Position numbers and translations under genes: made by a program. This document shows, piece by piece, positions 14,866 through 29,908 of a stretch of DNA of 32,000 bases (the first letter of the stretch is position 1; every line of letters starts with the position of its first letter). The notes below the pieces were generated by a model. It had not been told where the DNA came from and ran no database searches. It worked only from the letters and a program-made list of their open reading frames with translations. The stretch covers positions 240,001 to 272,000 of the forward strand of contig CP025011.1 in the NCBI GenBank assembly GCA_002952755.1, written 5' to 3'. This stretch comes from Candidatus Saccharimonadota bacterium (GTDB lineage: Bacteria; Patescibacteriota; Saccharimonadia; Saccharimonadales; UBA4665).

Positions 14866-16893
14866 GTGAGCATGGTAAAAACACTATTACTGGCACGACA
14901 TAAACTGCGGCGACCGGCTTCGACGCTTGGGGCCATCATCGCTGCGGTGGGTCTCTTATTCGTCTCTAGCAGTCCCATGGCAACCTTCGCCCAAGGCGCC
15001 TCAACAAGTCGCCAACAATTATTCTTTAGCGCAGCCCAAGAATTTGAAGTGCCAGAAAGCGTTCTTCTGGCACTTTCGTATAACGAATCACACTGGGTAT
15101 CGAACGCCGGTATGAGCAATGACGGTGGCTACGGGCTTATGGATCTGCGCACCTATCACAGTACAGTCATGAGTGGCCGCGATGGTACGACCGTCACTCC
15201 TGCTAAGCAGCAGGCGAGTTACTATACCCTCGACCAGGCCGCGCAACTACTGCGCGTATCGCCAGCAATCCTAAAAGCGGACGACCAGCAAAACGTTCGT
15301 GGTGCGGCCGCAGTGCTCGCCCAGGATGCAAAACAGCTCAATAGCGGTAATTTGCCAGTAGATCTGGGTGACTGGTACAGTGCTGTTGCGCAGTTCAGCG
15401 GAGCTGTCAATTCGGCATCGGCAAGTTCATTTGCTAACGATGTTTTTACCACCATCAAGGGTGGAATCAGTCTTACTACGCCTGACGGCCAGGTAATGAA
15501 CCTTCCAGCTTCACCTTCCGTGCGGCCAAACATAGAGGGTATGTCGGCTCTGGAATTCAAGCCGACATCTATGAATCCGGTTAAGAATATATCTAACTCA
15601 ACTCCCGAATGTCCCAGTACTCTTAACTGCCGCTTCATTTCTGCCTTCTATGGGCCGGACGACCCAAATGACCCCACCAACTATGGCAATTATGATTTTG
15701 CCAATCGCCCCCAAGATATGCAGATTAAATACATCTACATCCACGACGGCGAAGGCTCATACGACAGTATTGTTAACCACTTCCAAGACCCTTCGGCCTA
15801 CGACAGTGCGCAATACGTCATTTCTTCCCAAGGCGATATCACTCAGATGGTACGCAATAAAGATGTTTCTTGGGGTGTTGGCAACTGGAACATGAATATG
15901 CACGGGATTAACATCGAGCACGCAGGCTTTGGCGCCCAAGGCGCTAGCTGGTACACACCAGCGATGTATCAGGCCTCTGCTACGCTCGTGCGTTGGCTTG
16001 CTAGTACGTATCACATCCCACTCGACCGTCAGCACATTCTCGGCCACGACAACATAATGCTTCGTCCAGCGGCAGGGCAATGGGCACAGCACTGGGATCC
16101 GGGCCCCTATTGGGATTGGAACTACTACATGGATTTAGTGAAGGGTAAAACGCCCGCACAGGCATCGGCTGACTATGCAAAGACTTCTGTCGCTGATTTC
16201 TCGCTAAAAAAGGGCGATGTTGTAACTATCTCGCCGAATTTCGCGACGAACCAGCCTCTTATTACTGATTGCCAGACAGGTACATGCGTGACACTGCCGA
16301 AACAAGGCGCAAATTTTGTGTACTTGCATACACAGCCCGACACCAACGCACCCTTTTTGACCGACCCTTACTTACATTCGCAGGCTACAAGTGACCCCTA
16401 TTTGTACATAGACGGTCCGGTTGGCAATACCCAAGATAACGATTGGGGAGATAAAGCTCCGAGTGGCTTTAAGTATGTCGTTGCTGATATACGAGGCGAT
16501 TGGACTGGTGTTTGGTATTCCGGGCAAATAGGTTGGTTCTACAACCCTCATGGCGAAGGACGTACTGCGCACTGCGGCACGAGCGCAACACTGGCCCCGC
16601 GCCGTGGCTTAAGCTCGGTCCCGGTGTATACGCTGGCATATCCCGAAGCCTCTGCTTATCCTTCGACTATCCCCGTACAGCCGCAGCCAACAGCGTACTC
16701 GATACCCGCCGGACAACGATACACTACAACGGGTAAAGCTATCACAAGCGACTATTTTTATGACTGGACCTGGAACTATAGCGCCCCAGATGACCATAAG
16801 ATAGTGGTGGGCAACCAGAAGTACTATGAGATCACCTACAACCACCATATCGGCTTTGTAAAGGTTGAAGACGTTGATGTAACGTCCAACTAA
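14866..16893 (+). CDS. Secreted multidomain peptidoglycan hydrolase A: SLT-like lytic transglycosylase + N-acetylmuramoyl-L-alanine amidase (Amidase_2/PGRP-type) + SH3b-like C-terminus
   Basis: Signal peptide (LGAIIAAVGLLFVSSSPMATFAQGA). SLT motif ALSYNESHW...GGYGLMDL. Amidase core IKYIYIHDGEGSYDSIVNHF...WGVGNWNMNMHGINIEHAGF...HILGHDN...HWDPGPYWDW. SH3-like GDWTGVWYSGQIGWF and YYEITYNHHIGFVKVEDV. The likely start is ATG 14872, 5 nt after AGGGGG. Confidence 0.85.
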   Translation: MSMVKTLLLARHKLRRPASTLGAIIAAVGLLFVSSSPMATFAQGASTSRQQLFFSAAQEFEVPESVLLALSYNESHWVSNAGMSNDGGYGLMDLRTYHSTVMSGRDGTTVTPAKQQASYYTLDQAAQLLRVSPAILKADDQQNVRGAAAVLAQDAKQLNSGNLPVDLGDWYSAVAQFSGAVNSASASSFANDVFTTIKGGISLTTPDGQVMNLPASPSVRPNIEGMSALEFKPTSMNPVKNISNSTPECPSTLNCRFISAFYGPDDPNDPTNYGNYDFANRPQDMQIKYIYIHDGEGSYDSIVNHFQDPSAYDSAQYVISSQGDITQMVRNKDVSWGVGNWNMNMHGINIEHAGFGAQGASWYTPAMYQASATLVRWLASTYHIPLDRQHILGHDNIMLRPAAGQWAQHWDPGPYWDWNYYMDLVKGKTPAQASADYAKTSVADFSLKKGDVVTISPNFATNQPLITDCQTGTCVTLPKQGANFVYLHTQPDTNAPFLTDPYLHSQATSDPYLYIDGPVGNTQDNDWGDKAPSGFKYVVADIRGDWTGVWYSGQIGWFYNPHGEGRTAHCGTSATLAPRRGLSSVPVYTLAYPEASAYPSTIPVQPQPTAYSIPAGQRYTTTGKAITSDYFYDWTWNYSAPDDHKIVVGNQKYYEITYNHHIGFVKVEDVDVTSN

Positions 16894-16903
16894 GATCACA
16901 GAA

Positions 16904-16950
16904 TTTGAAACTAGAAAACGGGGTGGTCAACCCCGTTTTCTAGTTTCAAA
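16904..16950 (+). terminator. Strong terminator hairpin
   Basis: Perfect 20-bp stem tttgaaactagaaaacgggg / ccccgttttctagtttcaaa with a 7-nt loop, 11 nt after the stop of hydrolase A. Confidence 0.85.
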
Positions 16951-17055
16951 GTTTGAAGTTGATCGGGCGAGACGCGCAAGCTCCTACCATGAGCAGAATC
17001 GGTAAGATAACTCATACCATACGCAATACCAGATAAAGTAATATCAAAGGGTTTT

Positions 17056-18285
17056 ATGCAAAATGCACTGCGCCGGACGTTTACCTCGCTAGCAGTTCGT
17101 AATTTTCGATTGTTCTTTATCGGGCAAGGTATATCGTTGTGCGGCACGTGGATGCGTACGATTGCTTTATCATGGCTGGTGCTACAGCTGACCCATTCCG
17201 GTGTACAACTTGGGGTAGTGACGGCAGCTCAATTTTTACCAGTCTTGCTACTGGGTATGTTCGGAGGTGTAATTGTCGACCGTACAGATAACAAACGGCT
17301 ACTCATCTTTACGCAGATTTGCCTCGGCGTTATCTCGCTCCTACTGGGCATACTGGTTATCACGCATTCGATTGAACTCTGGGCAATATATGTGCTTGCG
17401 GTGTTTTCTGGCGTTATAACGGTGCTAGATACGCCGGCCCGACAAACGTTTTTTGTGCAGATGGTAGGTGAGCAGCAGCTGAAGAATGCAGTGACGCTCG
17501 ATGCTATTATGATAAATGTCGCTCGCGTGGTGGGCCCTTCTATGGCTGCAGGATTAATCGCAGGGGTTGGAATCGGCTGGTGCTTCATTATCGATGCCTG
17601 CACGTTTGTAGCGGTACTTGTCGCGCTAATCATGATCCGTCGGAGTCACCTGCATCATGTAGAGCCGGCTCCGCAGGTACCGGGTCAGTTGCGCGCCGGG
17701 CTACAGTACGTTCGTTCTACCCCGGCCCTTCGTACATCTTTGCTTATGATGATAATAATCGGAACATTTGCGTACGAGTTCCCGGTCGCATTGCCATTAT
17801 TTGCAACCAAAACCTTCCACGGTAATGCGACTGCCTATGCCCTCATGACGGCTGCTATGGGGCTCGGTGCAGTTGGTGGGGGATTGTATACGGCGGGGAG
17901 GCCACCCTCTTCTCTGCGCCGGCTTATACTAAGCGCAGTATTATTCGGCTTAAGCATGATGATCGTTGCCGTGGCTCCCAACCTCGTAACTGCACTCATG
18001 CTCCTGGTCGTAGTTGGAGCGCTCTCCATCCTATTTATATCGCTCAATAATACAACAACGCAGCTTACGAGCACGCCACAAATGCGTGGCCGGGTTATGG
18101 CATTGTGGTCTATGGCGTTTCAAGGGACGACTCCCATTGGTGGTCCGATTATTGGTGCTATCGCAGATCACAGTAATCCGCGCGTTGGATTAGCGCTAGG
18201 CGGTGCATCTGCTGTGGTCGCCGCGGGTATTGGTGTGTTTACTGCTGGCTACCGACTACCCAAGAGGGAACAGAAAAATCCTTAA
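17056..18285 (+). CDS. MFS transporter (EntS/DHA3-like, MFS_3 type)
   Basis: 409 aa, about 12 hydrophobic segments. The N-terminus FTSLAVRNFRLFFIGQGISLCGTWMRTIALSWLVL...GGVIVDRTDNKRLL is typical of the PF05977-like efflux subgroup. Confidence 0.85.
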   Translation: MQNALRRTFTSLAVRNFRLFFIGQGISLCGTWMRTIALSWLVLQLTHSGVQLGVVTAAQFLPVLLLGMFGGVIVDRTDNKRLLIFTQICLGVISLLLGILVITHSIELWAIYVLAVFSGVITVLDTPARQTFFVQMVGEQQLKNAVTLDAIMINVARVVGPSMAAGLIAGVGIGWCFIIDACTFVAVLVALIMIRRSHLHHVEPAPQVPGQLRAGLQYVRSTPALRTSLLMMIIIGTFAYEFPVALPLFATKTFHGNATAYALMTAAMGLGAVGGGLYTAGRPPSSLRRLILSAVLFGLSMMIVAVAPNLVTALMLLVVVGALSILFISLNNTTTQLTSTPQMRGRVMALWSMAFQGTTPIGGPIIGAIADHSNPRVGLALGGASAVVAAGIGVFTAGYRLPKREQKNP

Positions 18286-18581: not shown

Positions 18582-19223
18582 ATGGCTACTCAGAGAAAAT
18601 CTGCGACAACATGGGCGGGCCTCATAGGGCCGAGCGTATTGCTAGCTCTTATTGGTGTCACTCACCCCATGGATCTCAACGGTCATACCGCGCTTTACTG
18701 GCGTAATATGCACGTTGTTTTGTTGTTTGTATTCCCGCTTTTGGCCGTGGGTCCTTACATCTTGCTGAAGCCAGCTGGCCGATGGCTGCGCTGGATGGCG
18801 AACATACTCTTATATGGGTTTGTTTTTCTCTACACGGCGCTTGACCTGCTGAATGGAGTCGGTGCTGCACATGTCTACCGTGAAACGTCTTCTATGACCA
18901 TGGTAACGCATCACGGGGTTTATTCGGTGATGGGCTCAAAGGATAGTATTGTGGCGATTTTGGGTATTGGCAATAAGCTCGGGAATATTGGTGTGTGGCT
19001 GTATCTTGTAGTTTGTATGCTGGTTGCCGGGTGGTATGTACGGCGCTACTTTGCTTCGCAAAGTCGCTGGGCTGTGTTGGCCGGAGGAGGGCTATTGGTG
19101 GCAGCTAGCATATCGTTTTTAGATTCGCACATCTATTGGCCGCGAGGTGTATGTACTATGATCGCTTTTGCAATAGCTTTTGCCCTGCTTGGGCGCGCTA
19201 CTTCGGTTACTAAGGTTAATTGA
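18582..19223 (+). CDS. Hypothetical integral membrane protein
   Basis: 213 aa with about 6 hydrophobic helices. No motif recognised. Confidence 0.6.
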   Translation: MATQRKSATTWAGLIGPSVLLALIGVTHPMDLNGHTALYWRNMHVVLLFVFPLLAVGPYILLKPAGRWLRWMANILLYGFVFLYTALDLLNGVGAAHVYRETSSMTMVTHHGVYSVMGSKDSIVAILGIGNKLGNIGVWLYLVVCMLVAGWYVRRYFASQSRWAVLAGGGLLVAASISFLDSHIYWPRGVCTMIAFAIAFALLGRATSVTKVN

Positions 19224-19384
19224 GAACAATCAATCTGGCTTGCCGTGACGGGGCGTCCTACATTCTGATTGCGATGGCTGGTTCAGGCTCGAATTTGTGT
19301 AGGTTCGGTGGCATCCGGGTTAATTATATGGACTACTAGTGAGTTATTCTTTATTACCGTATTTAAAATGCTACTATAAGGTTC

Positions 19385-20482
19385 ATGCTTACAAACGAGA
19401 AAATAACACCTGGCCATCATGCCAACCTTGATCCGCAAAATGTCGCCGTCCTAGCCGCAGAATTTGGCATTGCGCCCACTGCAAAATGGGAGGCGGTGCC
19501 CAGTTTTACGAGCGTCTTGTTCAGGACGGTTCATGGGGCCAGCGAGAGCGGGCCCGACGGCCAAGGATATATACTTAAGGTATCTCCAGTGGACATCGAA
19601 CAACCTGCCGAGCCACGTAATCGTATTGAAGCTCGGCGGCTCCGCCTGAGCCATGCTTTTGCCGGCTTGCTTAGGCCCGTATTGCAAGCCATGGAGCCAC
19701 CTGTGGCGGTTGTGGGGTACGAACCAGTCATTACCCGCTCAAACCAGGGAGACATTATGACTTTTTACGGCGAGTACGGAAATCCGGCAGTCGTTATGAA
19801 GGAAATGCCCGGTACGCCAGCAAGCAGCAAAGCTCCAGAGGGCCAGGTGCCGAGCATTGAGCAACCGAAATACCTTGCTCAGCTAGCACGTGTCCAAGCG
19901 GCTACCCATGCTATGCGTACAGAACCAAGCCTTTTAGCACTTGCCAATGAACTAGGCGACCAAGAGCTGACATGCGTCGAAGATTACACCGGGAAATTCC
20001 TACGCCCGCTCCCGGAAGATGTCGTCGTTCCTAGGCGTTGGCAAGAGATTACACAAAAAGCAAACGAGTATTGGCCTCTTCTGGAGAGTGGTGTGGGATT
20101 TGTTGATCTATGGCATAGCAACACGATGGTAGAAGCGAGAACGGACGAAGCAGGCGAAACTCATGACGTCTTGACAGGTATTTTTGATATTAATGATACC
20201 CAGAAGGCGCCCCGGCTGTGGGACACGGCGGTGACGGTGTGGGGACTCTTTGTATGCAGTGGTGGTAAGTTCGAAATCGTTACAGAGTACATGGCTGCCT
20301 ACAGCGAAGAGCTGGAGCGCCTCGAAGTTCCCCTGACAGATATTGAAAAAGAAGCGCTGTGGTATATGGTGGCGGCACGGGCATTTACCGCATGGCAGGG
20401 TGCTAAAATTGCTAATCCACTATCCGCCGCCAACGACGAAGAACATATTGCGCAATTGCTTGCCCATACAGTGCTGGCGTAG
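19385..20482 (+). CDS. APH/ChoK-fold phosphotransferase-like protein, paralog A (catalytic loop intact)
   Basis: Beta-3 Lys GYILKVSP, hinge VVMKEMPGT, catalytic loop FVDLWHSNTMV (D-x4-N as in APH HGDLxxxN), and metal-binding GIFDINDT. Confidence 0.7.
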   Translation: MLTNEKITPGHHANLDPQNVAVLAAEFGIAPTAKWEAVPSFTSVLFRTVHGASESGPDGQGYILKVSPVDIEQPAEPRNRIEARRLRLSHAFAGLLRPVLQAMEPPVAVVGYEPVITRSNQGDIMTFYGEYGNPAVVMKEMPGTPASSKAPEGQVPSIEQPKYLAQLARVQAATHAMRTEPSLLALANELGDQELTCVEDYTGKFLRPLPEDVVVPRRWQEITQKANEYWPLLESGVGFVDLWHSNTMVEARTDEAGETHDVLTGIFDINDTQKAPRLWDTAVTVWGLFVCSGGKFEIVTEYMAAYSEELERLEVPLTDIEKEALWYMVAARAFTAWQGAKIANPLSAANDEEHIAQLLAHTVLA

Positions 20483-20610: not shown

Positions 20611-21099
20611 ATGTCAATTGAATCGGATGTACAAGTAGGGTTTGACGAATACCTTGCGGAGACGCTTAACAACCCGTTATTCTGGTACCAGCAGCGTATC
20701 GGGGGGCTGGTTTTACCTCCGTCCATCACTGAAGGCGGTGACCTAGTTGCGGTACGCTTCGGATTCCCCGTCCATGATGCGAGCATTCAGAACTTTGGAA
20801 GCAGGCGCGGCTGGTTAGTGGCGTCTCAAGTTGGCGGAGTCCACCGTGTCGATATTGTATCCGATCCCTCCTATCTAGCGGGCTACCGCGGTGGCACTCA
20901 ACGACGAGAAGGGGATCATACTGCTCGCAGGAATATTGGAAACGGAATACCCTCCATCTCTACAAACCGAGATAAGAGTGGAGCTGCCGTTACCGTTACG
21001 GTACCTGTGAACTCTAAGGGCAATATAGCCTACACCCCCATTTTGAACGGCGACCCCCTAACGAATTATGAAGGCATCGGGTTGGCCACCGAGGGGTAG
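20611..21099 (+). CDS. Hypothetical protein
   Basis: 162-aa ORF with GAGG 9 nt upstream of the ATG. No signal peptide, no recognised motif. Followed by a 9-bp hairpin (21111-21141). Confidence 0.55.
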   Translation: MSIESDVQVGFDEYLAETLNNPLFWYQQRIGGLVLPPSITEGGDLVAVRFGFPVHDASIQNFGSRRGWLVASQVGGVHRVDIVSDPSYLAGYRGGTQRREGDHTARRNIGNGIPSISTNRDKSGAAVTVTVPVNSKGNIAYTPILNGDPLTNYEGIGLATEG

Positions 21100-23096: not shown

Positions 23097-25049
23097 ATGA
23101 TTATTAAGCTTGTCGCATCGAAAAGTAAACGTGTAATGCTTGCACTTAGTGCAATATGCGCCGTAGTGGCTTTGGCTGTGGGCGCAGCGCTGCCCGCGCT
23201 TGCTGCTTCGGCTCAGACTAGTCTGGCAGGCAATTTTGCTGCAGCCGCTCAAGAGTTTGGCGTGCCGCAGAGCATACTATTGGCTGTTTCGTATAATGAG
23301 TCGCACTGGCAGTCGAATGCCGGCATGAGCTCTGACGGTGGCTATGGCATCATGGATTTGCGTACCTATGCTTCAACGGCTGTAAGCGGCCGCGACGGAG
23401 ACACTGTCTCTGTTCCAAGGCAGCAGGCGAACCATTACACGCTTGATGAGGCCGCGAGTTTGCTCGGCGTTTCTAAAGACACAGTAAAGACAAACGAGCA
23501 GCAAAACATTCGCGGCGGTGCAGCGGTTTTAGCGCAAGAAGCACGTCAGCTCAATGGTGGAAAACTGCCTACATCGGTAAATGACTGGTATAGCACTGTC
23601 GCACAGTACAGCGGCGCTACAACTAACAGCGGCGCTACTAATTTTGCTGACGATGTTTACGCCAGTATTGGTAGTGGTACGTCGCTAACAACACCCAGCG
23701 GGCAAGCCATGAACCTGCAGGCTGTCCCGGGTTTGCACCCCAACAAGACTATCAGTGCGCTTGGCCTCAAAAGTGTTTCTCTAAACGCTCACAATGTGCT
23801 GGGTAGTAATCCTGAATGTCCATCAACGGTGCATTGCCGTTTTATCCCCGCTGCCTATGCGCAGAATGATCCCAACGACCCAACTAATTATGGTAACTAC
23901 GATCCAGCTAACCGGCCTCACGACATGCAGATCCGGTATATCTTTATCCATGACGGCGAAGGTAGTTACGACAGCATAATCAACCACTTCCAGGATCCAA
24001 CGGCGCTCGACAGTGCACAATATGTCATTTCAACCCAAGGGGATATTACTCAGATGGTCTTGAACGAGCATGTTTCTTGGGGCGTGGGCAACTGGAACAT
24101 GAATATGCACGGCATTAACATTGAACACGAAGGGTTTGCTGCCCAAGGTGCAAGTTGGTACACTCCTGCAATGTACCAGCAATCCGCGACACTGGTGCGC
24201 TGGCTGGCGAACAAGTACCATATCCCGCTCGACCGTCAACATATTTTAGGGCACGATAGCGTAATGCGCCTATCTGCCACTAAGCAAGCTGCACAGCATT
24301 GGGACCCAGGCCCTTACTGGGATTGGAATTACTTTATGGATCTCGTAAAAGGTGATACCCCTCCCGAAGTTACGCCCGACATAGCCTACCCCTTGCAACA
24401 AGGTGATGTCGTAAAGATCGCGCCGCATTTTGCAACTAACCAGCCCGTGGTCACCGATTGCCAAACCGGCACTTGCATTACGCTGCCTAAGCAGGGAACG
24501 AATTTTGCGTACCTGCATGCCTGGCCCAACAGCAATGCCCCACTGCTAAGTGACCCCTACCTGCACACTGATGGCTCGGCGGGGACGACTCAGGATAATG
24601 ATTGGGGCGACAAAGCGTCAAGCGAAGAAAAGTATGTAGTTGCCGCCGTGCAAGGCGACTGGGTAGGAATATGGTATGCAGGCCAGATTGGGTGGTTCAA
24701 CAATCCGTTTGGTGCTCATCGGGTTGCTAACCTGAGTTCTAGCGCCACTGTCACACCGCGGGCGGGCCGTAGCTCCATCCCCGTATACACGAGCGCCTAT
24801 CCCGAAGCCTCGGCTTATCCAGCGGCTATACCCGTGCGACTTCAGAATACGCCCTACACTATGACGGCTGGCCAGAAATACACCGTAGACGCTAAAAGCG
24901 TTGGCAGCGACTATTACTACGATGCGACCGCTAATTACAGCTTGCCAGATGACCACATGATCGTCGTCGGCAAGCAACGCTACTACGAGATTACCTTCAA
25001 TCACCACGCCGGATTTGTAAAAGTTGAAGATGTAACATTGAGGCAGTAG
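23097..25049 (+). CDS. Secreted multidomain peptidoglycan hydrolase B (paralog of 14866..16893)
   Basis: Collinear with hydrolase A over the full length: AVSYNESHW...GGYGIMDL, IRYIFIHDGEGSYDSIINHF, WGVGNWNMNMHGINIEHEGF, HILGHDS, HWDPGPYWDW, GDWVGIWYAGQIGWF, YYEITFNHHAGFVKVEDV. Signal peptide present. SD AAAGGAAG; starts 29 nt after the M15 gene. Confidence 0.85.
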   Translation: MIIKLVASKSKRVMLALSAICAVVALAVGAALPALAASAQTSLAGNFAAAAQEFGVPQSILLAVSYNESHWQSNAGMSSDGGYGIMDLRTYASTAVSGRDGDTVSVPRQQANHYTLDEAASLLGVSKDTVKTNEQQNIRGGAAVLAQEARQLNGGKLPTSVNDWYSTVAQYSGATTNSGATNFADDVYASIGSGTSLTTPSGQAMNLQAVPGLHPNKTISALGLKSVSLNAHNVLGSNPECPSTVHCRFIPAAYAQNDPNDPTNYGNYDPANRPHDMQIRYIFIHDGEGSYDSIINHFQDPTALDSAQYVISTQGDITQMVLNEHVSWGVGNWNMNMHGINIEHEGFAAQGASWYTPAMYQQSATLVRWLANKYHIPLDRQHILGHDSVMRLSATKQAAQHWDPGPYWDWNYFMDLVKGDTPPEVTPDIAYPLQQGDVVKIAPHFATNQPVVTDCQTGTCITLPKQGTNFAYLHAWPNSNAPLLSDPYLHTDGSAGTTQDNDWGDKASSEEKYVVAAVQGDWVGIWYAGQIGWFNNPFGAHRVANLSSSATVTPRAGRSSIPVYTSAYPEASAYPAAIPVRLQNTPYTMTAGQKYTVDAKSVGSDYYYDATANYSLPDDHMIVVGKQRYYEITFNHHAGFVKVEDVTLRQ

Positions 25050-25091: not shown

Positions 25092-25748
25092 TCACTTCGA
25101 CTTATTAGGAATCACCAGAGGTTCCTCGGGGCGTAAGTGATAATTCAGGAAGCGTGCTAGTAAGATGACGCCGCCAATACCGAAGTGTATAACATTGGTA
25201 TCAAAAGTTGTCGGCGCACGACTATAGCTACGAAGTAGATACCTGATCATTATATGTAGTTCATCTAGGTTAATGTAGACACTGCCCTCCAAGCCAGCTT
25301 CAAGTGCTGCTGCTTCATCGAAGAAAACAGTATGGTCAAAGACAAATGGTTCATTTCCGATGTTGTGGCGGCGCACTTCTTCTCTGCTATTTTGGCTAAG
25401 TTTGTAGAGAGCCCCCCATGCTCGTGTGACGGAACTCATCCTACCTTGAGTTAGCTTAAGTTCTTTTGTAGCGAACGAGTGTAGATCATGGAGATCCGCT
25501 ACCGGTACATTGTCGATTTTCTTTAGCTCGGGTTTTTCGCTTTGAGCGTGTGCACCTTCGAGCGTTTCGTTTTGATATGCATCGTAGGCGGCCCTAACTA
25601 CCGTGCAAGCTTCAAATCCTAACCTGTAGGCATCGTCAGGCGTGCGCTCTGAATTATCATCTTTCATTGCCTCACGAAAAGGCCTCTCAGCTTCAGCCAG
25701 AACGTACGCTAAATCTGAATCTGTAATTACTCCCGCGTTTAGAATCAA
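25092..25748 (-). CDS. Hypothetical protein (third gene of the orphan operon)
   Basis: 218-aa ORF, TTG start 33 nt after the upstream gene's stop. No recognised motif. Short hydrophobic stretch HFGIGGVILLARFL near the C-terminus. Confidence 0.55.
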   Translation of the reverse strand: MILNAGVITDSDLAYVLAEAERPFREAMKDDNSERTPDDAYRLGFEACTVVRAAYDAYQNETLEGAHAQSEKPELKKIDNVPVADLHDLHSFATKELKLTQGRMSSVTRAWGALYKLSQNSREEVRRHNIGNEPFVFDHTVFFDEAAALEAGLEGSVYINLDELHIMIRYLLRSYSRAPTTFDTNVIHFGIGGVILLARFLNYHLRPEEPLVIPNKSK

Positions 25749-25781
25749 GCTCCATAATAGCAGCCGCCCTTCTTTAAAGCC

Positions 25782-26456
25782 TCATGACTCCAGAAGCGGT
25801 GTGCTTGCATGGGTGAATATATTGCGCCAAGCTTGTTCGAAACGGAGGAGCTTTGAGTCGAACTCTGGCTCGTATACATCGATACCACCAAAGCTGATTT
25901 CAGATGATTCCGCATCTTTGTTATAGCTCATAAGGCCAAGGGCAAGTGGTTCGATGTTGGACTGCTCTATGCCTCCTGGTGGGAGGACGTCCCAAAAGCC
26001 AACCTTTGGAACGCCGTTTTCTATGCCTTCGAAGTAGGCGTTCGAGAGTTGGTTGGCAGGTCCAGCCCAAACTCTAAGCTTCAAAGCTATGTCGCCCAAT
26101 CGGGCCACGCGCACGTCTTCCTCAACTCCCGCGAATACGCGTTTTTGCCAGTCTAGCAATGGGTCTTTCTGTCCCGTTTGCCCCGGCACTACCAGGAGCC
26201 GTGCGGTGTTTTGAAAATTGGCGGCAAATTTTTTATAGTCCGCTGTAACTGTCGATTGTGCATCGCCGCCAAGAGGAACATCCCCGGGATATATATCCGG
26301 GAAGCTTTGAACATACAGCGCTTTGCTTCCTGTCGGTAGCGTTAGCTTACCGCCAAGCAGATAGTCATCTTTGAAGCCGTCAAAATTTCGGTAACGAGCT
26401 GAGGGTTGTGGCAGTCTTGGCCCGGATGAGAATTTCATAGCCGTTACTATGAACAT
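25782..26456 (-). CDS. Hypothetical protein (second gene of the orphan operon)
   Basis: 224-aa ORF, no signal peptide or TM segment, no recognised motif. Composition typical of a soluble protein. Confidence 0.55.
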   Translation of the reverse strand: MFIVTAMKFSSGPRLPQPSARYRNFDGFKDDYLLGGKLTLPTGSKALYVQSFPDIYPGDVPLGGDAQSTVTADYKKFAANFQNTARLLVVPGQTGQKDPLLDWQKRVFAGVEEDVRVARLGDIALKLRVWAGPANQLSNAYFEGIENGVPKVGFWDVLPPGGIEQSNIEPLALGLMSYNKDAESSEISFGGIDVYEPEFDSKLLRFEQAWRNIFTHASTPLLES

Positions 26457-26571
26457 TCCGTCTTCGGATGTCTATTGTTTTTTTGGATGACATGTAGCGA
26501 GATTTTGGAGGCTCCCGGAACCCCGTGTTTTATGTTTCGTATTTCAACTCCCCAACCTGAGGTTATTGGGG

Positions 26572-27585
26572 CTATGAACTTGCGAATTGCATGGCCAGGC
26601 TTGCTAATCGTGTCACTTCCACATCGGCGGTGGCCTTGGCTAGGTGCTGTACATCCTCGGTTTGCCCCTCCAGATTAGGCGTTAGGCCCCTTACTAACCC
26701 GTTCAATACCCTGACCGAGCCGTCCTGGCGCACGACATAATCGAATGTAAGGTAGTTTTGACGGCCATATTTTGCTGCAAATGCGCTTTCAACTAACGCA
26801 TGGAGTACTGCGAGCTGAGGAAGTCTATGAAATACAAGTTCGGGCTCGGCGAGCTTTAATTGGGATGCAAATTGTTTACCTATGTCGCTATGAGGGTCAG
26901 TTAGGCGTAGCTCAACTGCGGGTACTTGGCTTAGCGGTAGCCACAATGGACTGAAGACACGTAGCGCGTGCAGATAGTCAACGTTTGAGTCCGGAATGTC
27001 TACGGTGAGGCCAAGTTGATCTATTAATTCCTGTGCGTTTATAAGCGGTTCGGGCCGCTGCCAAATAGCAGTACTAACAGGGGACTCTTTAGTTTGCTCA
27101 CCAAAGTCCGCTGTTTTTATAAGTTGCGCCCGCGCTCCCGGGGCTTCGCTAACGTCGCTAATTTTGTTTGGTTTTATAAAAATAAGTTCATCGGCCTCCG
27201 GATCTTTGAGGTCGGAGATAGGTCTGGTTTCGATGCCATATTCTCCAAGTCCCAGCTCGCTCAGAGCAGTCGCAAAGCCTTGGCGTGTGGCGAGTTCGGT
27301 ACGTGCGGTAGCCGAGTTGTATCCATGGCCGGGTGTATATGCAGATGGGTCTCCGTCTGGCCAAGCTATATCCCGTAGACGCCAGGCATAGTGGCCTGGT
27401 TCTAAGTCTAAAGAGCGAATACGGCCTGACGTATCATATGTATCTGGATCGCCGGCATCTACAAGAAATGTCCGGATATCCCCAGTCGCTAACGCAGCCG
27501 ATAGGTATGTCTGACGTGTTACTAATTGATTAGGTAACGGTGCACGACCTTCGATGACAACTGTCGGCTGAAACACTTCGGCCAT
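26572..27585 (-). CDS. Hypothetical protein (first gene of the orphan operon)
   Basis: 337-aa ORF with GGGGA SD 3-4 nt upstream of the ATG. No signal peptide or TM segment, no recognised catalytic or nucleotide-binding motif. Confidence 0.6.
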   Translation of the reverse strand: MAEVFQPTVVIEGRAPLPNQLVTRQTYLSAALATGDIRTFLVDAGDPDTYDTSGRIRSLDLEPGHYAWRLRDIAWPDGDPSAYTPGHGYNSATARTELATRQGFATALSELGLGEYGIETRPISDLKDPEADELIFIKPNKISDVSEAPGARAQLIKTADFGEQTKESPVSTAIWQRPEPLINAQELIDQLGLTVDIPDSNVDYLHALRVFSPLWLPLSQVPAVELRLTDPHSDIGKQFASQLKLAEPELVFHRLPQLAVLHALVESAFAAKYGRQNYLTFDYVVRQDGSVRVLNGLVRGLTPNLEGQTEDVQHLAKATADVEVTRLASLAMQFASS

Positions 27586-27610
27586 TGTTCCCCTTTTTTG
27601 GAATTTTACT

Positions 27611-27640
27611 GGCGCTCCTACGAAAATCCATAGGAGCGCC
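27611..27640. promoter_or_regulatory. Perfect 10-bp hairpin between the M15-B stop and the orphan-operon start
   Basis: ggcgctccta-cgaaaatcca-taggagcgcc. The T-run is on the + strand only, so on the coding (minus) strand it acts as a U-less terminator or a 5'-leader structure. A minus-strand TATACT lies upstream of it. Confidence 0.5.
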
Positions 27641-27683
27641 TTATTTTAAGATGTTAGTCCTTTAGTATAATTTAGCCGAGGTA

Positions 27684-28664
27684 CTAATGTCCATCGACAG
27701 ACCAGTGAGGATGGTCGCTGGCGAGCTTATACACGTTGTAGCTGGCTCCTACGGCCCAGAGGTCGGAGTTAGTAGCGCCGCTGCGTGGCGCTTTGATTTC
27801 GACCTGTTTGCCGTTGCCGTCGGTAATTGTCATCGTTCCCGACCAAGAAATGTTCATATCGATTGCTAGGCCTTGCGTATGATTAGAAGTAAGTGATGGC
27901 TCGTGCACTATCTGGTAGTCCTTGACCATATCCGCAGCTGCTTTTTTCGATGCAGCATGGTCGACGGAGCCATTAGACGTGGTGTGCACCCAGCACACTG
28001 CAACATCGGAGCGGAGTGGTACGTCTGTCGGGTCCATGTTCTTTCTGGCTATTTCGTATGCGTAGTGCATAAGGTAGGCGCGCTGCGGTGGGCGGTATGT
28101 TGCCGAAATGCTCACCGAAGCGCCGGCATTTTGCAATGCACCTATGAAGTTGTTGGCGTTGGTTCGGAACGGGTCGACTAAGTCGCTCGTTGAGGTGCTG
28201 GTTGGGAACTGGCTAACCCAGGAGGAACCGCTTAGCGTGGTGTTGGGTTGGCAAGGACCGGGAGTGATCTCGGCGGTTATAGTGGCGGTTTCATCGCCAT
28301 CATAGCCGTTGACACAGCCATATACATTGTCGTTATCTGGTGTTACGAATGTTGGAAACGTCACCGTAGGCGAGTCCACCTGTACAGTTTGGTCGAATAC
28401 GTTCCCCGTGTCGTAGACATGCAGTGTTTCGCCTTCGGTTGCGTCATCTGGATCGTCGATGTCGTTGTAGGCAACGGTGAGTTTGACCTTAGAGTAACGG
28501 CCGAGCGGATTTGCGTTTATAGCCGTCGGCGAGCTGCAGTCGCTGCTAACAGTGACGGTTGTTGTCACCGGTTGCGGCGTGCTAGCAAAAACCGGCACTG
28601 ACGTGAGTAAAGGACTCGCACTGACGATGCTGGCAGTCGCAATTAGTAGTTTTTTAAATTTCAT
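27684..28664 (-). CDS. Secreted LAS-family (M15, VanY-like) metallopeptidase B with an N-terminal beta-rich domain
   Basis: ATG at 28664 is preceded by AGGGGGG. Signal peptide MKFKKLLIATASIVSASPLLTSVPVFAS. SATYRPPQRAYL (S-x-x-R...Q..L), SNHTQGLAID (H-x6-D), and C-terminal DHPHWS. Confidence 0.8.
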   Translation of the reverse strand: MKFKKLLIATASIVSASPLLTSVPVFASTPQPVTTTVTVSSDCSSPTAINANPLGRYSKVKLTVAYNDIDDPDDATEGETLHVYDTGNVFDQTVQVDSPTVTFPTFVTPDNDNVYGCVNGYDGDETATITAEITPGPCQPNTTLSGSSWVSQFPTSTSTSDLVDPFRTNANNFIGALQNAGASVSISATYRPPQRAYLMHYAYEIARKNMDPTDVPLRSDVAVCWVHTTSNGSVDHAASKKAAADMVKDYQIVHEPSLTSNHTQGLAIDMNISWSGTMTITDGNGKQVEIKAPRSGATNSDLWAVGASYNVYKLASDHPHWSVDGH

Positions 28665-28849
28665 ATGCCCCCCTACTACTATTTTTATATCAACCTGCAT
28701 GGTACCACACTCAAAGGTTAGTGCAATATGGTGTATCATAATTCGGGCACAAAACTGTAAGAAAAGTCACTCTTACAACAAGAGCTAAACGCTACACTTA
28801 ATTGCCAATTTGCAGCTATTACTATTTTTACTACTTAGGGGGCAAGAAA

Positions 28850-29908
28850 ATGACTACTGGCTATATAACTCCTGGCGAGCAATCTCGAATACGTGAAGCT
28901 GATGTACCGGATTTTGTACACGAAGAGTGGGACATTGTTGTGGGTGACGTTATGGAAAGGCCGAGCCACACTGGCAGGGTATTTACCATGAGGAGTATGG
29001 CTACGCGAGGGGTCGTATTCGGTGATAACGCAGTAGAAGCTGAAATTGCCGAGGGGGAAGATCTGGTATTTAAGGCATTTCCCAATAAAGTCCCGGCCAG
29101 CCGATTATATTTGGCGGATGCATTAAGCGATGTCCTAAATGCTGCCGACATACACGTCGATGGAGATCCAGAGCGCATTAAGGTGCAGAAGTACTTATCT
29201 ACAATCGTTTCGAGCGACGCGGTGGCATGGCATGGAAATAACCCCACAATTTTAGCCCGCCTCATCCCTGGCGAAAAACTGTCCGGCGATGCTTCGCCCT
29301 TAGAGTTTGACCGTTTGGCAGAGATGCACGCCAAAGTGCACAATCATTTCCAAGATCCCAAGCTTCTAAGGGCAGTTGGGGACGACGAAAGCCTAAAGAT
29401 TACCAATACAGACGGGTACATGGAACGATTTACGCGCCAAACTCCGGAAATAATCGCTCAGATGCCGGAGGCATGGAGGGCTATACTCGATGTCGTTGAT
29501 GAGAACTTTCCGTATTTGCCGCAGGGGGTTGTCCCGGTAAGTATGTGGATGGGCGACGTGCCGTTCCTAGATGGTCGGCCAAGAGGCTTATATGACATTA
29601 ACGAGACAGAACATACATCACCCTTGCTGTGCAAAGGTATGTCTGTCTGGGGTTTGTACGTAGCTACGGGAAGCTTTGAGGCGGTTACGCGATACGCTCA
29701 AGTGTATCAGGAACATCGGGAACTAACGCCGCCCGAAGTTGAGCAGTGGCCCTATCACGTGGTTGCCCGTGCAATTATGTCGTGGCAAGGGGCTAAGCTC
29801 GTAGAGCATTTGACCCCGCCCGGGGAGCGATCAGCAGCCCAACGAGATGAAGAGCGGATCAACACGCTGCATGATCGTTTCAGAGAGTCGGGATTAGTAT
29901 CAGTGTAA
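28850..29908 (+). CDS. APH-fold kinase-like protein, paralog B (catalytic loop substituted)
   Basis: ATG 28850 lies 7 nt after AGGGGG. Aligns with paralog A at the N-terminus (YITPGEQ vs KITPGHH), beta-3 LVFKAFP, hinge ILARLIPGE, GLYDINET, WGLYV and SWQGAKL. Where A has VDLWHSN, B has VSMWMGD (Asp to Ser, Asn to Asp). Confidence 0.65.
   Translation: MTTGYITPGEQSRIREADVPDFVHEEWDIVVGDVMERPSHTGRVFTMRSMATRGVVFGDNAVEAEIAEGEDLVFKAFPNKVPASRLYLADALSDVLNAADIHVDGDPERIKVQKYLSTIVSSDAVAWHGNNPTILARLIPGEKLSGDASPLEFDRLAEMHAKVHNHFQDPKLLRAVGDDESLKITNTDGYMERFTRQTPEIIAQMPEAWRAILDVVDENFPYLPQGVVPVSMWMGDVPFLDGRPRGLYDINETEHTSPLLCKGMSVWGLYVATGSFEAVTRYAQVYQEHRELTPPEVEQWPYHVVARAIMSWQGAKLVEHLTPPGERSAAQRDEERINTLHDRFRESGLVSV

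What the first reader, a model, noticed from the sequence alone, without database searches (positions are those of the whole stretch)
14866..29908. Cell-wall-degrading island built from duplicated modules interleaved with orphan genes
Within 15 kb there are four secreted peptidoglycan-active enzymes.

- Two are full-length paralogs (14866-16893 and 23097-25049) that each fuse an SLT-type lytic transglycosylase motif (SYNESHW...GYG[LI]MDL), an Amidase_2/PGRP-type MurNAc-L-Ala amidase core and SH3b-like repeats. By eye roughly two thirds of aligned residues are identical, and the DNA is also recognisably similar.
- Two are different LAS/M15 metallopeptidases (22306-23067 and 27684-28664; H-x6-D plus a distal His).

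Together they could cut the glycan strand, the stem-peptide amide bond and peptide bonds. Between them lie an MFS transporter, a polytopic membrane protein, two divergent APH-fold kinase-like paralogs, and six cytoplasmic ORFs with no motif I recognise. An island this dense, showing paralog expansion (hydrolase x2, M15 x2, kinase-like x2), suggests an accessory arsenal. Possible roles are host or prey wall attack, muropeptide harvesting, or a dedicated wall-remodelling machine with its own immunity or regulatory partners. It does not look like routine housekeeping autolysins.
Basis: partly seen in the sequence, partly recalled or inferred. Interest (0 to 1): 0.7.

Follow-up and report, generated by a model that had tools for sequence, protein, structure and literature searches.

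The report
Duplicated cell-wall hydrolases in a Saccharibacterium
A stretch of chromosome from an uncultured Saccharibacteria-type (ultra-small, host-attached) bacterium carries four exported cell-wall-cutting enzymes, two of them old duplicates. Related genomes show that they and the unknown genes between them are not a conserved "island", so this is a useful catalogue of candidate wall enzymes, not a new kind of system.

Summary
The sequence observation holds. hydA (14866-16893) and hydB (23097-25049) are 67% identical. Each has a signal peptide, an SLT-type lytic transglycosylase, an Amidase_2 domain and a tandem SH3b-like C-terminus. 22306-23067 is a Peptidase_M15_4 enzyme. 27684-28664 is a secreted LAS-fold peptidase from a clade with no above-threshold Pfam match; its relatives sit in T6SS clusters and a prophage tail module. 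The two kinase-like genes are real but very rare paralogs.

The organism is inferred to be a Saccharimonadales (Saccharibacteria) bacterium.

The "island/arsenal" reading is only partly supported.
- The hydrolase family is widespread in Saccharimonadales.
- In nine relatives it lies in nine different neighbourhoods, four with core genes (Mur ligases, MurB/MraY, groES/EL, dnaK operon).
- Only the M15_4 gene recurs beside it (2 of 9).
- No orphan, MFS, kinase-like or LAS gene is near it in any relative.
- There is no integrase or tRNA flank, and codon usage is native.
- The two M15 enzymes are not paralogs, and I count five orphans, not six.

Most likely this is autolysin-type wall-remodelling equipment of the epibiont, duplicated in this lineage. 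Use against the actinobacterial host wall is unexcluded: the closest non-CPR homologues are from Actinomycetota.

The parts
14866..16893 (+). hydA: secreted three-module peptidoglycan hydrolase. Signal peptide about residues 1-43; SLT-type lytic transglycosylase about 53-205 (Glu75 in YNES); Amidase_2 residues 284-414 (His293, His394, His409/Asp411); tandem SH3b-like region about 446-675. Gene callers start it at 14872 (673 aa).
   Evidence: Pfam Amidase_2 98 bits, SLT 20.4 bits. 67% identical to hydB. Motif positions. 72-78% identical orthologues P0003, P0004 and P0007.
16899..16955 (.). 26-nt-arm hairpin directly after the hydA stop codon. A likely terminator that separates hydA from the MFS gene.
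   Evidence: Inverted repeat I1. Fold dG -36.6 kcal/mol, z = -9.8.
17056..18285 (+). MFS transporter of the MFS_3 family. By my recollection this family includes the EntS exporter.
   Evidence: Pfam MFS_3 207 bits, MFS_1 124 bits. Not found near the hydrolase in any relative.
18582..19223 (+). Polytopic membrane protein of 213 aa, with about six hydrophobic segments by eye and no family assignment.
   Evidence: No Pfam, NCBIfam or PADLOC hit.
19385..20482 (+). APH1: divergent APH-fold kinase-like protein. Its catalytic-loop Asp241/Asn246 (VDLWHSN) and metal-binding Asp268 are present.
   Evidence: Pfam APH 34 bits. Only 5 hits among 1.84 billion representative proteins. Motifs.
20611..21099 (+). 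Orphan ORF of 162 aa, cytoplasmic.
   Evidence: No hit in Pfam, NCBIfam, PHROGs or PADLOC. Native codon-usage score 0.15. One-member cluster at 90% identity.
21467..22096 (+). Orphan ORF of 209 aa, cytoplasmic.
   Evidence: Same searches, no hits. Codon score 0.12. Two-member cluster at 90% identity.
22306..23067 (+). Secreted LAS metallopeptidase of the Peptidase_M15_4 family, 30 bp upstream of hydB. This is the only neighbour that recurs beside the hydrolase in relatives.
   Evidence: Pfam 50 bits against a cut-off of 25. SxHxxGxAxD at 152-161 and His230. Orthologues 68% (L019) and 77% (L030) identical, both adjacent to the hydrolase.
23097..25049 (+). hydB: paralog of hydA with the same three-module build. 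Glu68; His285/His386/His401/Asp403; SH3b-like region about 438-650.
   Evidence: Pfam Amidase_2 93 bits, SLT 23.3 bits. AF2 of residues 415-650 with pLDDT 92. Foldseek hits that are tandem-SH3b carriers by my knowledge of those entries. Family profile hits AmpD 1j3g (E 8e-6), AmiD and MltF.
25092..25748 (-). Orphan ORF of 218 aa, last gene of the minus-strand run.
   Evidence: No family hit. Codon score 0.19.
25782..26456 (-). Orphan ORF of 224 aa.
   Evidence: No family hit. Codon score 0.19.
26572..27585 (-). Orphan ORF of 337 aa, with no signal peptide by eye.
   Evidence: No family hit above noise. Codon score 0.19.
27684..28664 (-). Secreted two-domain protein. It has a signal peptide (MKFKK...VFA/ST), an N-terminal beta-rich domain of low confidence, and a C-terminal domain of about 185 aa with a LAS fold. 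The domain has no above-threshold Pfam match. The ORF can be extended to 28700 or 28739.
   Evidence: 381 homologues, mostly stand-alone proteins of about 185 aa. Invariant H262/D269/H320/R191 in 326-aa numbering. pLDDT 94-98. Foldseek hits Ply500, VanY, VanX and LysB4. Relatives lie in T6SS clusters and in a myophage tail module.
28802..29908 (+). APH2: paralog of APH1, with the called start at 28850 (352 aa). Ser replaces the catalytic-loop Asp (VSMWMGD), so it is probably a pseudokinase.
   Evidence: 28% identical to APH1, E 2e-27. The same Asp-to-Ser change occurs in a 59% identical relative, L024.
14324..14695 (-). TrpR/YerC-type small regulator, transcribed divergently from hydA. Context only.
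   Evidence: Pfam Trp_repressor 54 bits.
29949..30922 (+). Two NUDIX hydrolase genes downstream of APH2. Context only, outside the finding.
   Evidence: Pfam NUDIX 65 and 70 bits.

Best explanation
This is an ordinary, non-mobile stretch of the chromosome of an uncultured bacterium. I infer it to be a Saccharimonadales (Saccharibacteria, Patescibacteria) member from the source names of its closest hydrolase relatives. It happens to hold most of a wall-remodelling tool kit.

The core is a lineage-wide secreted autolysin-type enzyme, present here in two old copies, hydA and hydB.
- After export, the C-terminal tandem SH3b-like domains would hold the enzyme on peptidoglycan.
- The N-terminal SLT domain would cut MurNAc-GlcNAc bonds, giving 1,6-anhydroMurNAc ends.
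- The Amidase_2 domain would strip stem peptides from MurNAc.

A secreted Peptidase_M15_4 enzyme is encoded 30 bp upstream of hydB. It recurs beside the hydrolase in some relatives and would trim or cleave stem peptides. A separately transcribed secreted LAS peptidase adds a second peptide-bond activity.

Shown: the domain content, intact catalytic motifs, exported-looking N-termini, the age of the duplication, and the lack of conserved linkage to the other genes. Inferred: the bond specificities, and that the main substrate is the bacterium's own wall (growth and daughter-cell separation).

The MFS, membrane protein, kinase-like pair and five orphans are lineage-restricted neighbours. Nothing ties them functionally to the hydrolases.
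For: - Domain assignments.
- Catalytic residues are conserved in both copies and across 45 homologues.
- The family is widespread. There are more than 2,339 hits at E<=1e-10. The top 120 cover at least 91% of the query at 47% identity or more. Where named, they are mostly Candidatus Saccharimonadales, Saccharibacteria or Patescibacteria.
- Some relatives' loci carry core genes: Mur ligases with sortase, LCP and Tat (L016); MurB and MraY (L017); a Mur ligase and groES/EL (L021-23); hrcA-grpE-dnaK-dnaJ and adk (L031).
- M15_4 is adjacent to the hydrolase in L019 and L030.
- Among the top 120 hits, only this genome shows two copies on one contig, judged by longest-contig length.
- hydA groups with orthologues at 72-78% identity and hydB falls outside that group. 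Divergence is even across domains, at 64%, 84% and 67%. Both copies therefore look maintained.
- There is no integrase or transposase, and no tRNA lies next to the block (the only one is at 2336-2410). GC content is flat. The orphans have native codon usage.
- A strong hairpin isolates hydA as its own transcription unit.
Against: - No experiment or expression data exists for any of these genes.
- Having two copies is unusual for the family.
- The closest homologues outside the CPR are from Actinomycetota, at 41-44% identity on contigs of 68-72% GC. Actinomycetota is the phylum that hosts cultured Saccharibacteria (PMC10633639).
- The LAS domain clade is otherwise found in T6SS clusters and a phage tail module. 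Those are contexts of breaching a wall, often someone else's.
- The held part of the annotation tables for the cultured oral Saccharibacterium Southlakia epibionticum lists no Amidase_2, SLT or M15_4 Pfam hit. The family may therefore not be universal housekeeping equipment.
- Only +/-10 kb was seen in nine relatives.
Confidence: 0.55

Rival explanations
1. Host-wall attack or feeding kit. One or both hydrolase copies, the M15_4 enzyme and the secreted LAS peptidase are deployed at the attachment site. They thin or open the peptidoglycan of the actinobacterial host so that the epibiont can extract nutrients. The duplication reflects specialisation, for example self versus host wall.
For: - The organism is inferred to be a Saccharimonadales member. 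Cultured Saccharibacteria grow as epibionts on Actinobacteria (PMC10633639 abstract).
- The nearest non-CPR homologues are Streptosporangiaceae (full length) and Streptomyces (amidase plus SH3b part), at 41-44% identity.
- The LAS domain is 45-50% identical to proteins in T6SS clusters. One forms an effector/immunity-like pair in E. coli; another is the C-terminus of a 1,162-aa protein next to VgrG in Rahnella. Relatives also occur in a myophage tail module.
- Two hydrolase copies on one contig is seen only in this genome among the top hits.
Against: - There is no conserved linkage to attachment or secretion machinery.
- Some relatives' loci carry core wall or chaperone genes near the hydrolase.
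- The binding and catalytic domains of the two copies have diverged evenly, with no sign of retargeting.
- No immunity-like exported small protein sits next to any of the four enzymes. The downstream orphans lack signal peptides.
- No paper in the searched library links this family to host interaction.
Confidence: 0.25
2. Muropeptide harvesting and salvage module. The secreted enzymes release anhydro-muropeptides and peptides. The MFS transporter imports them, and the kinase-like and NUDIX proteins process the sugars. This would resemble AmpG/AmgK-type recycling.
For: - A transporter, two APH-fold proteins and two NUDIX genes lie between and beside the hydrolases.
- APH1 keeps its catalytic residues.
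- By my recollection, AmgK belongs to the APH fold.
Against: - The transporter is MFS_3. By my recollection that family includes the exporter EntS and not the importer AmpG.
- APH1 has no AmgK, AnmK or MurK signal. NCBIfam gives only a 31-bit homoserine-kinase hit against a cut-off of 271. No PDB sequence hit was found. It has 5 relatives among 1.84 billion representatives.
- APH2 lacks the catalytic Asp.
- None of these genes is near the hydrolase in nine relatives.
- Intergenic gaps of 130-370 bp and a strong terminator after hydA argue against an operon.
Confidence: 0.08
3. Horizontally acquired genomic island or prophage remnant that brought lysis genes and cargo orphans.
For: - The orphans and the kinase-like pair have almost no relatives anywhere.
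- The LAS domain occurs in prophage-like contigs.
- The neighbourhood around the hydrolase varies between relatives.
Against: - No integrase, transposase, phage structural gene or PHROG hit was found.
- No tRNA or direct repeats flank the block. The only tRNA is at 2336-2410.
- GC is 0.50-0.53 throughout, and the codon score of every orphan is within the range of core genes.
- The hydrolase family is absent from IMG/VR. It gives only 26% identical amidase-domain hits to phage endolysins.
Confidence: 0.05

Closest known systems
Staphylococcal bifunctional autolysin Atl/AtlE (Amidase_2 amidase, SH3b-like repeat domains, glycan-strand hydrolase)
   Same: One exported polypeptide combines a MurNAc-L-Ala amidase of the Amidase_2 family, a glycan-strand-cleaving domain and SH3b-like wall-binding repeats. 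The AtlE repeat structure 4epc is among the fold hits, at rank 18. Atl's role in daughter-cell separation (my knowledge) is the model for the best explanation.
   Different: The glycan-cutting module here is an SLT-type lytic transglycosylase at the N-terminus, not a C-terminal glucosaminidase. There is no evidence of proteolytic processing. There is no sequence similarity outside the amidase core.
AmpD / AmiD / T7-lysozyme-type Amidase_2 zinc amidases
   Same: The family profile hits AmpD 1j3g (E 8e-6) and AmiD 2bh7 (E 2e-3). Pfam scores are 93-98 bits. The His...His...Asp-Pro-Gly zinc-site pattern is invariant.
   Different: The enzyme is secreted and multidomain. An invariant His (QHWDPGP) occupies the position that I recall as a Lys in AmpD and T7 lysozyme. 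The NCBIfam AmpD model scores 33 bits against a cut-off of 143, so it is not an AmpD orthologue.
Family-1 lytic transglycosylases (Slt70 / MltF / VirB1-type SLT domain, PF01464)
   Same: The E-S catalytic motif and a GLMQ-like motif (GYG[LI]MDL) are present. Pfam SLT matches 35 of 45 family members. There are weak profile hits to the MltF catalytic domain (E 0.03).
   Different: The Pfam score is marginal: 23.3 for hydB, and 20.4 for hydA against a cut-off of 21.3. The fold of this module was not modelled here. 6 of 45 relatives have Gln in place of the catalytic Glu.
LAS / M15 zinc peptidases: VanY, VanX, Listeria phage endolysin Ply500, LysB4
   Same: The 253-aa protein matches Peptidase_M15_4. 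The C-terminal domain of the 326-aa protein has H-x6-D plus a distal His, and its best fold matches are Ply500, VanY(B), VanX and LysB4.
   Different: The 326-aa protein scores below every Pfam or NCBIfam cut-off. It has no PDB sequence hit even with a 50-sequence profile. TM-scores are modest at 0.37-0.48. Bond specificity (D-Ala-D-Ala, L-Ala-D-Glu or cross-link) cannot be read from the sequence.
T6SS-associated wall peptidases (TagX-type VanY-superfamily accessory endopeptidase; peptidoglycan-targeting effectors with immunity partners)
   Same: Relatives of the LAS domain, 45-50% identical, are encoded inside an E. coli T6SS cluster and next to VgrG in Rahnella. TagX is described as a VanY-superfamily L,D-endopeptidase needed for T6SS transit through the wall (PMC13584744).
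   Different: No T6SS or other contractile-system gene appears in the 32-kb window, and I know of none in this monoderm lineage. The protein carries a Sec-type signal peptide and a private N-terminal domain. No immunity-like neighbour is present. I did not compare it with a TagX sequence.
Two-domain VirB1-like hydrolases of Gram-positive conjugation/T4SS (TraG of pIP501, PrgK), also reported in Patescibacteria T4SS loci
   Same: An SLT domain is fused to a second peptidoglycan-cutting domain in one exported protein (PMC12102498).
   Different: The second domain there is CHAP, not Amidase_2. No T4SS genes lie in this window or next to the hydrolase in the nine relatives' loci examined.

Membership tests
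Amidase_2 (PF01510) MurNAc-L-Ala amidase: hydA, hydB | HMM score above the curated cut-off | tested here: met
   98 and 93 bits against a cut-off of 26. 45 of 45 homologues match.
Amidase_2 (PF01510) MurNAc-L-Ala amidase: hydA, hydB | Zinc-binding His / His / Asp(Cys) triad conserved | tested here: met
   H285, H386 and D403 (hydB numbering) are invariant in 45 sequences. The equivalent residues are present in hydA. The assignment of these residues as ligands is by analogy to AmpD (my knowledge).
Amidase_2 (PF01510) MurNAc-L-Ala amidase: hydA, hydB | Amidase activity on peptidoglycan | not testable with these tools
   Needs recombinant protein and muropeptide analysis.
SLT / family-1 lytic transglycosylase (PF01464): hydA, hydB N-terminal module | HMM score above the curated cut-off | tested here: inconclusive
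   hydB scores 23.3 and hydA 20.4 bits against a cut-off of 21.3. 35 of 45 relatives match at E<=0.01.
SLT / family-1 lytic transglycosylase (PF01464): hydA, hydB N-terminal module | Catalytic Glu in the E-S motif | tested here: met
   YNES at residues 72-75 (hydA) and 66-69 (hydB). Glu occurs in 39 of 45 relatives and Gln in 6.
SLT / family-1 lytic transglycosylase (PF01464): hydA, hydB N-terminal module | Lysozyme-like fold | not tested
Bacterial SH3 (SH3b) wall-binding repeats: hydA, hydB C-terminus | Match to SH3_3 or a related HMM | tested here: not met
   No hit better than SH3_1 at E 0.21. Only 2 of 45 relatives hit SH3_3, with best E 4e-4.
Bacterial SH3 (SH3b) wall-binding repeats: hydA, hydB C-terminus | SH3b-type beta-barrel fold in tandem | tested here: met
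   All-beta AF2 model with pLDDT 92. Foldseek probability 1.00 to YrvJ, Psm 4krt, 3npf, 4r0k and 6bim, which carry tandem SH3b domains by my knowledge. Single SH3b domains 2kt8 and 9ovi align with TM 0.62-0.70.
Peptidase_M15_4 / LAS: 253-aa protein | HMM above cut-off, plus H-x6-D and a distal His | tested here: met
   50 bits against a cut-off of 25. SQHGLGRACD at 152-161 and His230.
LAS (M15/VanY-like) fold: 326-aa secreted protein | HMM above cut-off | tested here: not met
   M15_4 scores 15.2 bits and VanY 12.4 bits against a cut-off of 25. 12 of 50 relatives give sub-threshold hits.
LAS (M15/VanY-like) fold: 326-aa secreted protein | Conserved zinc motif H-x6-D with a distal His, and the LAS fold | tested here: met
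   H262, D269 and H320 are invariant in 50 sequences. Foldseek top hits are Ply500 (E 1e-3, prob 1.00), VanY, VanX and LysB4. TM-scores are only 0.37-0.48, so this is a fold-level call.
Mobile genomic island / prophage | Integrase or transposase, flanking tRNA or repeats, atypical composition | tested here: not met
   None in the Pfam or PHROGs scans. The self-blast shows only the hydA/hydB match. GC is flat. Codon scores are native.
Conserved multi-gene system (operon or gene cluster) | Co-occurrence of the components in related genomes | tested here: not met
   In nine relatives' loci only M15_4 recurs (2 of 9). No other window gene is within +/-10 kb of the hydrolase.
APH / protein-kinase-like fold: APH1, APH2 | HMM above cut-off and the catalytic D-x4-N loop plus a metal-binding Asp | tested here: inconclusive
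   APH1 scores 34 bits against a cut-off of 23 and has VDLWHSN and FDIND, so it meets the test. APH2 has no Pfam hit and Ser replaces the catalytic Asp, so it does not.
AmgK/MurK-type amino-sugar salvage kinase | Detectable homology to a characterised sugar kinase | tested here: not met
   NCBIfam gives only a weak homoserine-kinase hit. No PDB sequence hit was found. There are 5 relatives among 1.84 billion representatives.

The most novel reading that the evidence does not exclude
The duplicated SLT-Amidase_2-SH3b hydrolases, their M15_4 partner and the secreted LAS peptidase could together be the tool kit with which an environmental Saccharibacterium opens the wall of its actinobacterial host. 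The LAS peptidase's catalytic domain is otherwise found in T6SS clusters and phage tails. On this reading the hydrolase family was exchanged between epibiont and host phylum. The second copy would be a host-directed specialisation, and some of the private neighbouring genes would control or protect against it.
Probability: 0.15. Interest if true: 0.7.

Novelty: new member of a known kind. Interest (0 to 1): 0.35.

Why it matters
How Saccharibacteria and other Patescibacteria breach or tap their hosts is largely unknown. The papers found in the searched library concern pili, T4SS and host defence, not wall hydrolases.

This work yields three concrete things:
1. A widespread, uncharacterised Saccharimonadales hydrolase family of defined architecture, with actinobacterial homologues.
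2. A recurrent M15_4 partner gene.
3. A LAS-fold peptidase clade with no above-threshold Pfam or PHROGs match. It links a secreted CPR protein to T6SS-cluster proteins (116 of 5,426 E. coli genomes) and a prophage tail-module gene.

These are testable candidates for either cell division or host-wall attack. The result also corrects the idea that the block is a functional island.

Tried and rejected
1. Concatenated-orphan search. I sent the five orphans as one 1,150-aa query to the 5.8-billion-protein search. It returned nothing, not even the proteins themselves. Candidate selection by shared words was evidently swamped, so this says nothing about the orphans and cost the last search.
2. The exact look-up of hydA with its GTG start failed because gene callers use a later start. 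P0247 could not be looked up.
3. A metagenome scan with the APH alignment found one 2-kb contig only.
4. The promoter and terminator consensus scan was no better than shuffled sequence.
5. Rfam found only the tRNA.
6. PHROGs and PADLOC gave nothing for the orphans. I therefore rejected the phage-remnant and defence-system ideas.
7. I considered orf337 as an ATP-grasp ligase paired with the LAS peptidase, in a van-like arrangement. No HMM supports this, so I dropped it.
8. I considered the downstream orphans as immunity proteins for the LAS enzyme. I rejected this because none has an export signal, whereas the E. coli relative's neighbour does.
9. Tse4 of Acinetobacter was checked as a possible relative of the LAS domain. 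Its peptidase models on LytM, so it is not the same family.
10. L001-L003 are 100% identical to the window, so they give no information on strain variation.

Full report
**What is in the sequence**

ORF listing and HMM scans show a run of 13 genes between 14866 and 29908. In order they are:
- hydA (14866-16893, +)
- an MFS_3 transporter (17056-18285, +)
- a 213-aa polytopic membrane protein (18582-19223, +)
- APH1 (19385-20482, +)
- orphans of 162 aa (20611-21099, +) and 209 aa (21467-22096, +)
- a Peptidase_M15_4 protein (22306-23067, +)
- hydB, 30 bp downstream of it (23097-25049, +)
- on the minus strand, a run of four genes: a 326-351-aa exported protein (27684-28664/28739), then orphans of 337, 224 and 218 aa
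- diverging from that run, APH2 (28802-29908, +), followed by two NUDIX genes

Upstream lie ordinary chromosomal genes: a histidine kinase, tRNA-Glu, a toxin-antitoxin-like pair, a GT4 glycosyltransferase, a Ham1 family protein, ArgRS, an alcohol dehydrogenase, MarR, PhzF, hisB-like, hisD, hisG and a TrpR-like regulator.

**The two large hydrolases**

hydA and hydB are 67% identical over 620 residues. Their DNA is 66% identical over 1,850 nt, and the similarity stops at the ends of the coding regions. What was duplicated, or what remains recognisable, is therefore the gene alone.

- Amidase_2 is unambiguous. Scores are 98 and 93 bits against a cut-off of 26, and 45 of 45 homologues match. A family profile hits AmpD and AmiD structures. 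The His/His/Asp-Pro-Gly pattern is invariant.
- The SLT module is marginal by score, at 23.3 and 20.4 bits against 21.3. It is supported at family level, with 35 of 45 members matching. Both window copies have the E-S catalytic motif. Six of 45 relatives carry Gln instead of the catalytic Glu.
- The C-terminal 236 residues gave no usable HMM hit. An AlphaFold2 model built on 45 homologues is confident, with pLDDT 92. Its best PDB matches are proteins that carry tandem SH3b domains by my knowledge of those entries: B. subtilis YrvJ, endolysin Psm, the Bacteroides dipeptidyl-peptidase VI proteins and Trichomonas NlpC. These have E 5e-5 to 1e-3 and probability 1.00.

Both proteins begin with a basic stretch, a hydrophobic stretch and an AxA-like site. 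I read that directly from the sequence, as no signal-peptide predictor was available.

**The two metallopeptidases**

The 253-aa protein is a clear Peptidase_M15_4 member, at 50 bits with SQHGLGRACD and a distal His.

The second protein fails every curated model: M15_4 at 15 bits and VanY at 12 bits. A 50-sequence profile finds no solved structure by sequence. Even so, H-x6-D, the distal PHW His and an Arg in TYRPP are invariant among 50 homologues. The model of residues 140-326 has pLDDT 94-98. Its top fold matches are Ply500, VanY(B), VanX and LysB4. I accept it as a LAS-fold peptidase from a clade with no above-threshold Pfam match.

The two peptidases are not paralogs (E 0.5).

**Relatives of the second peptidase**

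This was the most informative side result. Its 185-aa catalytic domain has 381 homologues. Most are stand-alone proteins, some fused to PG_binding_1. The few that sources name come from Cyanobacteria/Obscuribacterales and Proteobacteria MAGs.

- In E. coli a 187-aa relative, about 50% identical, sits inside a T6SS cluster between an AAA ATPase gene and tssB. It lacks a signal peptide. It is followed by a 96-aa protein that has one, which is an effector/immunity-like arrangement. It occurs in 116 of 5,426 complete E. coli genomes.
- In Rahnella aquatilis pRA1 the domain ends a 1,162-aa protein, one small gene downstream of VgrG, in a run of T6SS genes (ClpV, ImcF).
- A Rhizobium plasmid copy has no T6SS gene within 7 kb.
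- IMG/VR holds 37 loci with the domain. In the one I annotated, the gene lies between the sheath/tube genes and the tape-measure/lysozyme gene of a myophage tail module. Fourteen of the 37 belong to that same prophage lineage.

The domain is therefore repeatedly associated with machines that must pass through peptidoglycan. Here it is instead Sec-exported behind a private, poorly modelled beta-rich domain.

**Which organism**

The identical protein is recorded on a 1.45-Mb contig. Metagenome contigs from several runs match the window at 100%.

The closest hydrolase relatives (47-69% identical to hydB, covering at least 91% of it) are mostly named Candidatus Saccharimonadales, Saccharibacteria or Patescibacteria where a name exists. 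They lie on contigs of 48-55% GC.

Among GTDB species representatives, the best matches are Streptosporangiaceae (full length) and Streptomyces (amidase plus SH3b part only). These are 41-44% identical and lie on contigs of 68-72% GC.

I therefore take the organism to be an environmental Saccharimonadales bacterium. This is an inference from one protein family, not a phylogenomic placement.

**Is it an island?**

I fetched the neighbourhood of the hydrolase in nine independent relatives.

| Locus | Notable genes within 10 kb of the hydrolase |
|---|---|
| L015 | hypotheticals, Fic, an IS fragment |
| L016 | Mur ligases, sortase, TatA/C, LCP |
| L017/18 | MurB, MraY, a C39-like peptidase |
| L019 | M15_4 directly upstream |
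| L020 | sugar-nucleotide genes |
| L021-23 | Mur ligase and groES/EL |
| L029 | a Crp-like regulator |
| L030 | M15_4 directly downstream, convergent |
| L031 | hrcA-grpE-dnaK-dnaJ and adk |

A tblastn of every window protein against these loci finds only two things. One is the hydrolase. The other is the M15_4 protein, at 68% and 77% identity and both times adjacent. No MFS, membrane protein, kinase-like protein, orphan or LAS protein appears.

Other tests agree:
- The block has no integrase, transposase or phage gene.
- No repeat or tRNA flanks it.
- GC is flat.
- Codon-usage scores for the orphans (0.12-0.19) fall within the range of the core genes and are far above the alternative frames.
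- Most intergenic gaps are 100-370 bp.
- A 26-bp-arm hairpin (dG -36.6, z -9.8) follows hydA.

**The duplication**

hydA is 72-78% identical to P0003, P0004, P0007 and P0011 from other genomes, but only 67% identical to hydB. hydB falls outside that group in a neighbour-joining tree. Its best partner, P0002, is 69% identical. So the two copies separated before this lineage split from those relatives, or one copy was acquired from a related lineage.

Both copies keep all motifs. They have diverged evenly across domains: SLT 64%, amidase 84%, SH3b 67%. Nothing suggests that one copy has a retargeted binding domain.

That is weak evidence that a single copy is the norm.

**The other genes**

- APH1 is a bona fide APH-fold protein by HMM and motif. 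It has only five relatives among 1.84 billion representative proteins, including itself and, judging by its length and alignment, APH2.
- APH2 has Ser in place of the catalytic Asp, as does a 59% identical relative on a small metagenome contig. The upstream neighbour there is a HAD-like ORF (by eye), not the LAS protein.
- The five orphans have no hit in Pfam, NCBIfam, PHROGs or PADLOC. At 90% identity each forms a cluster of only one or two members.
- My attempt to search the orphans remotely as one concatenated query failed technically. Their wider distribution is therefore untested.

**Interpretation**

The best-supported reading (about 0.55) is that these are autolysin-type wall-remodelling enzymes of the bacterium itself, in the manner of staphylococcal Atl. 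Wall-binding repeats hold a glycan cutter and an amidase on the sacculus, and a LAS peptidase partner works alongside. On this reading the neighbours are unrelated lineage-specific genes.

The main rival (about 0.25) is deployment against the host wall. Three observations make it worth testing:
- cultured Saccharibacteria live as epibionts on Actinobacteria (PMC10633639)
- the hydrolase's homologues outside the CPR are actinobacterial
- the LAS clade is linked to T6SS clusters and phage tails

In addition, the held portion of the annotation tables for Southlakia epibionticum shows no Amidase_2, SLT or M15_4 Pfam entry. The family may therefore not be universal in the phylum. Those files may be truncated, so this is weak evidence.

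Salvage-pathway and mobile-island readings are poorly supported.

No paper in the searched library characterises this hydrolase family in Saccharibacteria.

**Verdict**

The enzymes are new members of known kinds, and the "island" is not a demonstrable unit. Interest is moderate to low (0.35). It comes mainly from the candidate role in an epibiont and from the LAS clade with no above-threshold Pfam or PHROGs match.

Noticed in passing
window 3236-3291, 4547-4626, 9169-9245: Three copies of an intergenic element of about 60-80 nt, 81-88% identical, with core AATATATTCCAACTCACCGAAGAGGGTTTCGACCTGAGTAGTC. It shows no significant fold on either strand (z -0.3 and +0.5). It could be a small dispersed repeat or a regulatory site.
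   Followed up: partly
window 11706-14242 (minus strand): hisG (HisG domain, 76 bits), hisD (by eye and in the gene calls for L001) and, by my reading of the sequence, a HAD-type histidinol-phosphatase-like gene lie in a genome inferred to be Saccharibacterial. To my knowledge this group generally lacks amino-acid biosynthesis. The contig is also large for the group, at 1.45 Mb.
   Followed up: no
window 2336-2410, 2443-2486, 2509-3103: tRNA-Glu(UUC) is followed by a perfect 18-bp-stem hairpin (dG -30.8, z -7.8). After that come two small overlapping ORFs that look like a toxin-antitoxin pair by eye.
   Followed up: partly
alignment A1, column of hydB Glu68: 6 of 45 hydrolase homologues have Gln instead of the SLT catalytic Glu, while their amidase sites are intact. 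In some lineages the N-terminal module may have become a non-catalytic glycan binder.
   Followed up: partly
L027 7989-8845 (E. coli 2012C-4221) and L025 3058-6546 (Rahnella pRA1): A LAS-fold domain with no above-threshold Pfam match (PGAP calls it 'peptidoglycan-binding domain-containing protein') sits in T6SS clusters. In E. coli it is a 187-aa protein followed by a 96-aa signal-peptide protein, found in 116 of 5,426 genomes. In Rahnella it is the C-terminus of a 1,162-aa protein that, by eye, also has CHAP-like and SLT-like segments. It looks like an undescribed effector or accessory hydrolase family.
   Followed up: partly
L032 7992-8570 (IMG/VR UViG 2859720988_000003): The same LAS domain is encoded between the sheath/tube genes and the tape-measure/lysozyme gene of a myophage tail module, with no PHROG match. 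14 of the 37 IMG/VR loci belong to this prophage lineage. The other 23 were not examined.
   Followed up: partly
window 28802-29908; L024 1099-1968: APH2 and its 59% identical relative both have Ser where the kinase catalytic-loop Asp should be (V[ST][MF]WMGD). This suggests a conserved pseudokinase, whereas APH1 keeps D-x4-N.
   Followed up: partly
L015, L017, L019, L020, L029, L030, L031 and window 29949-30922: One or more NUDIX genes lie within 10 kb of the hydrolase in seven of nine relatives' loci and in the window. This may simply reflect NUDIX-rich genomes and was not tested against a background.
   Followed up: no
L016 12085-12732 and L029 2473-3141: A Crp/cNMP-binding regulator gene is the immediate neighbour of the hydrolase in two relatives. 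In the window the adjacent regulator is instead TrpR-like (14324-14695).
   Followed up: no
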